Source: Escherichia coli (GTDB lineage: Bacteria > Pseudomonadota > Gammaproteobacteria > Enterobacterales > Enterobacteriaceae). Taken from it: a DNA stretch of 40,572 nucleotides. Of this stretch, positions 40,496-40,572 are shown in pieces. The stretch is taken from the NCBI RefSeq assembly GCF_003334355.1, contig NZ_QOWP01000032.1. One strand, written 5' to 3'. Numbering within the stretch: position 1 is the stretch's first letter; each line of letters begins with the position of its first letter. Both the position numbers and the translations under genes were made by a program. The notes below the pieces were generated by a model that worked only from the letters and a program-made list of their open reading frames with translations, was not told the origin of the DNA and did no database searches.

Positions 40496-40572
40496 TAGAC
40501 TGGCCCCCTGAATCTCCAGACAACCAATATCACTTAAATAAGTGATAGTCTTAATACTAGTTTTTAGACTAG
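40496..40572 (+). mobile_element. Left end (terminal inverted repeat region) of IS2, truncated by the window edge
   Basis: tagactggccccctgaatctccagacaaccaatatcacttaaataagtgatagtcttaatactagtttttagactag matches the IS2 left terminus as I remember it. Confidence 0.6.

What the first reader, a model, noticed from the sequence alone, without database searches (positions are those of the whole stretch)
40496..40572. IS2 left terminus at the window edge
The last 77 bp match the IS2 left inverted repeat and leader as I remember them, and the element continues beyond the window. IS2 beside IS66 debris indicates an insertion hotspot replacing or disrupting the prophage region found next to yeeX in K-12.
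Basis: partly seen in the sequence, partly recalled or inferred. Interest (0 to 1): 0.35.

Follow-up and report, generated by a model that had tools for sequence, protein, structure and literature searches.

The report
IS2 left end at contig edge
The last 77 bases of the window are the left end of the well-known E. coli insertion sequence IS2, cut off where a short-read assembly contig stops inside a repeat, which is an ordinary feature.

Summary
Window 40496-40572 is 77/77 identical to positions 1-77 of the curated K-12 element IS2F, and the same 77-mer occurs in about 4,700 of 5,426 complete E. coli genomes. Six close relatives read straight through ...GGTGAGTGAG|GGGCTGAG..., which fixes the boundary at 40495/40496.

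The 77 bases hold the whole 42-bp left inverted repeat, the OrfA repressor site and the start of the weak transposase promoter. The transposase start codon would lie 15 nt past the window.

The window also begins with exactly 77 bases of IS1. It is therefore probably a complete k=77 short-read contig, and the rest of IS2 was never in this record. I could not extend it. The junction is absent from all complete E. coli genomes and from JGI metagenomes, and products of an ORF spanning the junction are not on record.

The CP4-44-type island is indeed almost gone. But that deletion lies 585 bp upstream, at the tip of the IS66 remnant, and relatives without this IS2 share it. The IS66 debris is K-12's own yoeD pseudogene. 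This IS2 is a later, strain-specific arrival into an island remnant already full of insertion sequences. It is ordinary and already known.

The parts
40496..40572 (+). IS2 positions 1-77: the left terminus and the untranslated leader, cut off by the end of the window or contig
   Evidence: 100% identity over 77 nt to curated K-12 IS2F. Present in thousands of E. coli records.
40496..40537 (+). IRL, the 42-bp left imperfect inverted repeat. Positions 1-11 (40496-40506) are the cleavage domain. The end is TA rather than CA.
   Evidence: Coordinates transferred by sequence identity from the anatomy in PMC3299598. The paper's numbering checks against the sequence: TGAT at positions 48-51 and TAAATAA at 40-46.
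40534..40543 (+). Footprinted positions 39-48, which contain the OrfA repressor docking site TAAATAA (40535-40541). They sit at the centre of a palindrome with 9-bp arms, TATCACTTA-AA-TAAGTGATA (40528-40547).
   Evidence: PMC3299598. The palindrome appears as a reverse self-match, IS2 33-52 against window 40547-40528.
40543..40551 (+). Start of the weak extended -10 promoter P_IRL (TGAT = IS2 positions 48-51) that drives orfA/orfAB. The orfA ATG (IS2 positions 92-94) would lie 15-17 nt beyond the window's end.
   Evidence: PMC3299598. The ATG position was read from IS2F. The generic -35/-10 scan finds nothing here, as expected for an extended -10 promoter without a -35.
40491..40495 (.). GTGAG, the 5 bp next to IRL. 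It would be the left copy of the target-site duplication if this is a simple insertion.
   Evidence: Empty-site relatives read GGTGAGTGAG|GGGCTGAG. Complete IS2 copies examined have 5-bp duplications: GCCAC, GGAGA, GGTAC. The right copy is not in the window, so this is inferred.
39911..40495 (.). 585-bp remnant of the far end of a CP4-44/CP4-57-type island. It is the non-coding stretch next to the alpA-like regulator gene in intact islands and is absent from K-12's CP4-44.
   Evidence: 98.8-99.1% identity to ATCC 11775 (L003 7514-8096) and isolate 44 (L002 9626-10209). In L003 it starts 7 bp from the alpA-like start codon. No match in the K-12 interval.
39722..39910 (+). IS66-family transposase C-terminal remnant, equal to K-12 pseudogene yoeD. 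It ends in the terminal repeat ...TGACGCTTAC at 39910, and the island-deletion junction is at 39910/39911.
   Evidence: Pfam DDE_Tnp_IS66_C, E = 9.6e-16. K-12 yoeD annotation and 99.5% identity. Junction sequences compared.
39498..39680 (-). yoeF remnant (EutP/PduV family fragment)
   Evidence: Annotation of the identical PSS-12 sequence.
39068..39397 (+). tmaR (yeeX), the last intact core gene before the island remnant
   Evidence: Annotation of PSS-12 and K-12. Sequence read.
1..77 (.). Exactly 77 nt of an IS1 end abutting truncated wcaM. It mirrors the IS2 end and is the basis for the k=77 contig inference.
   Evidence: the empty-site genome H78 matches from base 78. IS1 annotation in PSS-12.

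Best explanation
The 77 bases are the left end of a copy of insertion sequence IS2 (IS3 family).

Event: the copy transposed, in this strain only, into the sequence GGTGAGTGAG^GGGCTGAG. That sequence lies in the 585-bp leftover of a CP4-44-type genomic island downstream of tmaR (yeeX).

Content of the 77 bases: they carry the 42-bp left inverted repeat, the OrfA repressor site and the start of the weak extended -10 promoter P_IRL.

Mechanism, from published work: the left inverted repeat is the recipient-only end when the element circularises, with the right end attacking next to it. When abutted to the right end in the minicircle, it supplies half of the strong junction promoter.

Why the sequence stops: IS2 is multicopy in the genome, so a short-read de Bruijn assembler (k=77) ended the contig exactly one k-mer into the repeat. 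The same happened at the other end, in IS1.

Shown: the identity, boundary and orientation of the terminus; that the site is empty in all close relatives; and that the island deletion predates the insertion.

Inferred: that the copy is full length (1,331 bp, orfA/orfB with a -1 frameshift, right repeat); that GTGAG is duplicated on the far side; and that the contig break comes from the assembler.
For: 77/77 identity to curated IS2F, and the 77-mer is present in 4,739 of 5,426 genomes. The boundary is fixed by empty sites in PSS-12, GCA_025635785.1, GCA_013068445.1, GCA_043238315.1 and two Logan assemblies that share the identical YeeA protein and 99.97-99.98% identical DNA. Complete IS2 copies in K-12, PSS-12 and CUVET20-416 are 1,331 bp with 5-bp duplications. 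Positions of the functional sites match PMC3299598. Both window ends are exactly 77 nt of a multicopy insertion sequence. The only other IS2 sequence nearby in the lineage lacks positions 1-339, so it cannot have supplied this left end by a local deletion.
Against: Nothing beyond position 77 of the element can be seen. No transposase genes, right repeat or second copy of GTGAG were observed. The same junction was found nowhere else, so completeness rests on analogy with other copies. The neighbourhood in the closest genome contains truncated and nested insertion sequences, which shows that partial IS2 copies and rearranged junctions do occur here. The k=77 explanation draws on general knowledge of assemblers, not on the assembly's records.
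Confidence: 0.8

Rival explanations
1. The IS2 end is real, but the junction was made by a rearrangement rather than a simple insertion. The rearrangement could be homologous recombination between two IS2 copies, or an IS2-mediated deletion or inversion. In that case the DNA on the far side of the element is not the GGGCTGAG... sequence, and there is no target duplication.
For: The tmaR-cobU interval of the lineage is heavily rearranged, with IS1203, a 5'-truncated IS2, an IS66-like end and an IS2-like fragment. The predicted right junction was not found in JGI metagenomes.
Against: The left junction was not found there either, so the negative result says nothing. All six relatives have the intact target sequence, and the nearby IS2 remnant has no left end to take part. 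Most IS2 copies examined are simple insertions with 5-bp duplications.
Confidence: 0.12
2. Only a fragment of IS2 is present: a solo left end or a 3'-truncated copy, which would be immobile debris.
For: Truncated IS2 and IS2-like fragments exist within about 3 kb of the equivalent site in PSS-12.
Against: The insertion is absent from relatives that differ by only 2-4 SNPs in 12.7 kb. It is therefore very recent, which leaves little time for decay. The 77 nt are free of mutations.
Confidence: 0.05
3. The junction is an assembly artefact: a chimeric join of the flank to an IS2 k-mer.
For: The sequence comes from what looks like a short-read contig, and the junction is unique among all the collections searched.
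Against: The break falls exactly at the element's first base, as real insertions do. A de Bruijn contig extends k bases into a repeat only when reads span the junction. Independent IS2 insertions 27 bp and 351 bp upstream and about 420 bp downstream in other strains show the segment is a genuine IS2 target.
Confidence: 0.03

Closest known systems
IS2 (IS3 family, IS2 group), reference copy IS2F of E. coli K-12 MG1655 (NC_000913.3 2068941-2070271)
   Same: Positions 1-77 are identical. They include the 42-bp IRL with its atypical TA terminus, the OrfA site TAAATAA and the TGAT start of P_IRL. The orientation relative to tmaR matches that of IS2F in K-12.
   Different: It sits at a different site: IS2F lies in yoeA with duplication GCCAC, and that site is empty in the closest relative of the window. 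Only 77 of 1,331 bp are visible here.
IS2 variant, 95.7% identical to IS2F, in strains PSS-12 and A3176 (annotated 'IS3 family transposase')
   Same: The first 77 nt are identical; the first difference is at position 88. It is inserted in the same 585-bp island remnant and in the same orientation, 351 bp (PSS-12, duplication GGAGA) and 27 bp (A3176) upstream of the window's site.
   Different: These are independent insertion events at other positions. The window cannot show whether its copy is the canonical type or this variant.
CP4-44 cryptic prophage of K-12 and its yoeD/yoeF edge
   Same: tmaR, yoeF' and the IS66 remnant yoeD are collinear and 99.5% identical to K-12 up to 39912.
   Different: yeeW, cbtA, cbeA, yeeT, yeeS, yeeR, flu and yeeP are all missing. 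The IS66 tip is joined instead to a distal island segment that K-12 lacks.

Membership tests
IS2 (IS3 family) | Left inverted repeat (42 bp) with the IS2-specific sequence and TA terminus | tested here: met
   40496-40537 is identical to curated IS2F positions 1-42. Length and terminus as in PMC3299598.
IS2 (IS3 family) | OrfA operator (TAAATAA, positions 40-46) and extended -10 promoter P_IRL (TGAT at positions 48-51) just inside IRL | tested here: met
   Present at 40535-40541 and 40543-40546 by exact identity. Function was not tested.
IS2 (IS3 family) | orfA and orfB (insC/insD) with a programmed -1 frameshift at A6G, giving a DDE transposase | not testable with these tools
   The orfA ATG would be 15 nt beyond the last base of the window, and no extension of this junction was found.
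IS2 (IS3 family) | Right inverted repeat (41 bp, ...GGGGCAAATCCA) about 1.3 kb away | not testable with these tools
   No IRR is present in the window, and it would lie outside the window.
IS2 (IS3 family) | 5-bp target-site duplication | not testable with these tools
   Only the left copy (GTGAG, 40491-40495) is visible. Other IS2 copies show 5-bp duplications. The predicted right junction is absent from JGI metagenomes.
IS66 family (the neighbouring debris) | Transposase with the IS66 C-terminal domain, and an element terminus of the GTAAGCG type | tested here: met
   Pfam PF13817 DDE_Tnp_IS66_C, E = 9.6e-16. The remnant ends ...TGACGCTTAC at 39910. That this terminus is of the IS66-family type comes from my own knowledge. 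Only the last ~52 codons survive, so it is a remnant and not an element.
CP4-44 cryptic prophage (K-12) | Gene set yeeP-flu-yeeR-yeeS-yeeT-cbeA-cbtA-yeeW between cobU and yoeF | tested here: not met
   Only the yoeF'/yoeD edge matches K-12. In the near-identical PSS-12 the whole tmaR-cobU interval is about 7.4 kb of insertion-sequence and pseudogene remnants.

The most novel reading that the evidence does not exclude
The non-coding stretch beside the alpA-like gene of CP4-type islands might be a preferred regional target for IS2. At least four independent insertions fall within about 800 bp (this window, PSS-12, A3176, CB7286), all in one orientation. This could reflect the curved-DNA target preference proposed for IS2.
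Probability: 0.12. Interest if true: 0.15.

Novelty: already known. Interest (0 to 1): 0.05.

Why it matters
It matters little. IS2 is one of the best-studied bacterial insertion sequences, and a new copy in a decayed island remnant has no obvious phenotypic consequence, because no intact gene is interrupted. The practical lesson concerns the scan itself. Windows that begin and end with exactly k bases of a repeat are whole short-read contigs, so features 'continuing beyond the window' cannot be followed in the record. The insertion could serve as a strain-specific marker within this lineage.

Tried and rejected
1. Finding the source genome or the same junction.
- Junction query 40400-40572 against 5,426 complete E. 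coli genomes: no true match. The three records covering at least 80% of the query (two strains) are composites with IS2 at other positions.
- Exact scans of JGI metagenome contigs for the predicted right junction and for the left junction: both gave zero hits.
- Look-ups of two possible products of the minus-strand ORF that spans the junction: not on record.

2. A look-up with the window's PlaP, which I took to carry a lineage-specific substitution. The SNP at 31972 is synonymous and the protein is the common allele, so this was uninformative. It did show how variable the tmaR-cobU interval is.

3. The idea that the window's IS2 is K-12's IS2F brought next to tmaR by a deletion. I rejected it because the yoeA site is empty in the closest relative, and the lineage's nearby IS2 remnant lacks positions 1-339.

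4. The idea that 39911 is a shared recombination point, because isolate 44 aligns from the same base. I rejected it because isolate 44 and ATCC 11775 share further sequence to the left, so 39911 is only the window's own deletion end.

5. A true IS2 hotspot. A 60-row sample of 3,824 records holding the segment shows mostly uninterrupted copies, plus ISEc20 and ISEc31 and one 'IS3 family' insertion. The count of IS2 insertions is about what a uniform spread of roughly four copies per genome would give. The orientation agreement is biased by how the search joins pieces.

6. I did not use the genome-contig scan. That collection holds one genome per species, and its E. coli representative, which from memory is ATCC 11775, has the empty site.

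Full report
**The observation**

The window's last 77 bases (40496-40572, TAGACTGGCCCCCTGAATCTCC...TTTTTAGACTAG) align without mismatch or gap to positions 1-77 of IS2F. IS2F is the 1,331-bp element annotated as 'insertion sequence:IS2F' in E. coli K-12 MG1655. The 77-mer matches 7,326 records in 4,739 of 5,426 complete E. coli genomes, on chromosomes and on plasmids. No other part of IS2 occurs in the window.

The left boundary is exact. Genomes without the element match the flank perfectly up to 40495. They then read GGGCTGAGAAATCCC where the window has TAGACTGG.

**What the 77 bases contain**

Lewis et al. (PMC3299598) give the anatomy, and their numbering checks against this sequence: TGAT at positions 48-51 and TAAATAA at 40-46. 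In window coordinates:
- The 42-bp left inverted repeat (IRL) is 40496-40537, and its 11-bp cleavage domain is 40496-40506.
- The footprinted positions 39-48, which hold the OrfA repressor site TAAATAA, are 40534-40543. They lie at the centre of a palindrome with 9-bp arms (40528-40547).
- The weak extended -10 promoter P_IRL starts at 40543.
- The orfA start codon (IS2 positions 92-94) would lie 15-17 nt past the window's end.

According to that paper, IRL lacks donor function. In step I the right end is cleaved and joined next to IRL, forming a figure-of-eight and then a minicircle. The abutted ends create the strong promoter Pjunc, and in step II both ends attack the target. These functions are transferred by sequence identity and were not tested here.

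The first 77 nt are also identical in a 95.7% variant of IS2 found in strains PSS-12 and A3176, whose first difference is at position 88. The subtype of the window's copy therefore cannot be told.

**Why the sequence stops**

The window also begins with exactly 77 nt of an IS1 end abutting a truncated wcaM. A genome without that IS1 matches from base 78 onward. Two ends, each exactly 77 nt into a multicopy insertion sequence, are what a de Bruijn-graph assembler with final k=77 produces at repeat boundaries. This rests on my knowledge of such assemblers and is an inference.

The 40,572-base window is therefore very probably a whole contig. I looked for the junction elsewhere:
- It is absent from all 5,426 complete E. 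coli genomes. The three records (two strains) that cover at least 80% of the junction query have IS2 at other positions.
- The predicted right junction and the observed left junction are both absent from JGI metagenome contigs.
- Two possible products of an ORF spanning the junction are not on record.

**The setting**

The window runs from wcaM through the O-antigen cluster, gnd, his, plaP, sbcB, dacD, sbmC and yeeA to tmaR (yeeX), as annotated in strain PSS-12. PSS-12 differs from the window by 9 substitutions, one single-base indel and a short length difference near 4,220-4,260, over the 40.1 kb up to 40144.

After tmaR (39068-39397) come three remnants:
- The yoeF remnant.
- An IS66-family transposase C-terminal remnant at 39722-39910 (Pfam DDE_Tnp_IS66_C, E = 9.6e-16).
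- A 585-bp stretch at 39911-40495.

Up to 39912 the window is 99.5% identical to K-12. In K-12 the IS66 remnant is the annotated pseudogene yoeD, at the edge of cryptic prophage CP4-44. Strains EA13 and PEC414 have the same remnant followed by an intact island with yeeW, cbtA, cbeA, yeeT, yeeS and further genes. The 'IS66 debris' is therefore an old, conserved landmark and not evidence of recent activity here.

In the window, the tip of the IS66 remnant (...TGACGCTTAC, ending at 39910) is joined directly to sequence that lies, in ATCC 11775, 7 bp from the start codon of the alpA-like regulator at the far end of the island. The whole island interior is deleted.

**Order of events**

Six assemblies carry the identical YeeA protein and DNA 99.97-99.98% identical over 12.7 kb: PSS-12, GCA_025635785.1, GCA_013068445.1, GCA_043238315.1 and two Logan assemblies. 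All six have the same island deletion, but an uninterrupted GGTGAGTGAG|GGGCTGAG at the window's IS2 site. The island was therefore lost before this IS2 arrived, and the IS2 is specific to the window's strain.

In those relatives the order of sequences after the site is:
- 24 bp of island sequence;
- 111 bp that begin like an IS66-family end;
- an IS1203 element;
- an IS2 that lacks positions 1-339;
- an IS2-like fragment;
- an uninterrupted yoeA region, meaning K-12's IS2F site is empty;
- cobU.

The truncated IS2 nearby has no left end, and IS2F is absent. The window's IRL therefore cannot have been brought next to 40495 by a local deletion.

A fresh transposition into GTGAG^ is the simplest account. 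Complete IS2 copies in K-12, PSS-12 and CUVET20-416 are 1,331 bp with 5-bp duplications (GCCAC, GGAGA, GGTAC). The A3176 copy has CTCC or CTCCT, depending on how the terminal T is assigned. I give about 0.8 to a full-length simple insertion with a GTGAG duplication. I give about 0.12 to a junction made by recombination between IS2 copies, and small weights to a truncated copy or an assembly artefact.

**Is it a hotspot?**

The interval between tmaR and cobU is clearly plastic. Different strains show an intact island, partial islands, IS5, IS110-type, IS66, IS1203 and IS2 insertions, or tmaR almost abutting cobU.

Independent IS2 insertions occur at three other positions relative to the window's site: 351 bp upstream (PSS-12), 27 bp upstream (A3176) and about 420 bp downstream (CB7286). 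But the segment family occurs at 8,708 places in 3,820 genomes, and in a 60-row sample most copies are uninterrupted or carry ISEc20. With a median of 3 matches to the IS2 left end per genome, a handful of IS2 hits in about 1 kb of dispensable DNA is roughly what chance gives.

The shared orientation is partly a search artefact, because pieces on opposite strands are not joined. A true IS2 hotspot is therefore not shown.

**Comparison and verdict**

This is IS2, a long-characterised member of the IS3 family. The defining features visible in the window are met by exact identity: IRL, the operator and the promoter. The others lie outside the record and could not be tested: orfA/orfB with the frameshift, the right repeat, the 5-bp duplication and the length.

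No intact gene is disrupted.

Noticed in passing
window 1-77 and 78-1016: The window starts with exactly 77 nt of an IS1 end fused to a 5'-truncated wcaM. In the near-identical PSS-12 the other side of this IS1 is a truncated wcaD, so most of the colanic-acid cluster (wcaD to wcaM) appears to have been deleted by IS1 in this lineage. The IS1-wcaM junction is shared by EA13, PEC414, E5 and the GPEC strains.
   Followed up: partly
window 39910/39911: The CP4-44-type island interior is deleted exactly at the outer tip of the IS66 (yoeD) remnant, which is joined to a point 7 bp from the alpA-like start codon of the distal island end. A junction that precise at the terminus suggests an IS66-mediated adjacent deletion, or recombination with a second IS66 copy. 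The lineage shares it, and it is older than the IS2 insertion.
   Followed up: partly
L001 (PSS-12) 9146-10476; window-equivalent 40140-40144: The closest complete genome carries a 95.7% variant of IS2, with duplication GGAGA, 351 bp upstream of the window's IS2 site and in the same orientation. The window has the empty site there. Two sister strains therefore each acquired an IS2-type element independently in the same 585-bp remnant.
   Followed up: yes
L001 (PSS-12) 10833-13842: Nested insertion-sequence debris lies downstream of the window's end in relatives. It comprises an IS66-like left end (GTAAGCGTAAACTG..., 111 bp) cut by IS1203, then IS2 lacking positions 1-339, then a fragment with an IS2-like but diverged left end. 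A weak 31-nt match to that fragment is also seen in K-12 at 2070471-2070501.
   Followed up: partly
window about 4219-4298: There is a short length difference from PSS-12 just upstream of the O-antigen gene cluster: the alignments overlap by 40 nt with an offset of about 66 bp, plus a 1-nt indel at 4298. It is probably variation in the copy number of a tandem repeat.
   Followed up: no
window 3528-3566, 28284-28407, 31146-31220: The Rfam matches over the whole window are only the expected ones: a JUMPstart element ahead of the O-antigen cluster, the His leader and the sRNA STnc240 upstream of plaP. There is nothing near the IS2 end.
   Followed up: no
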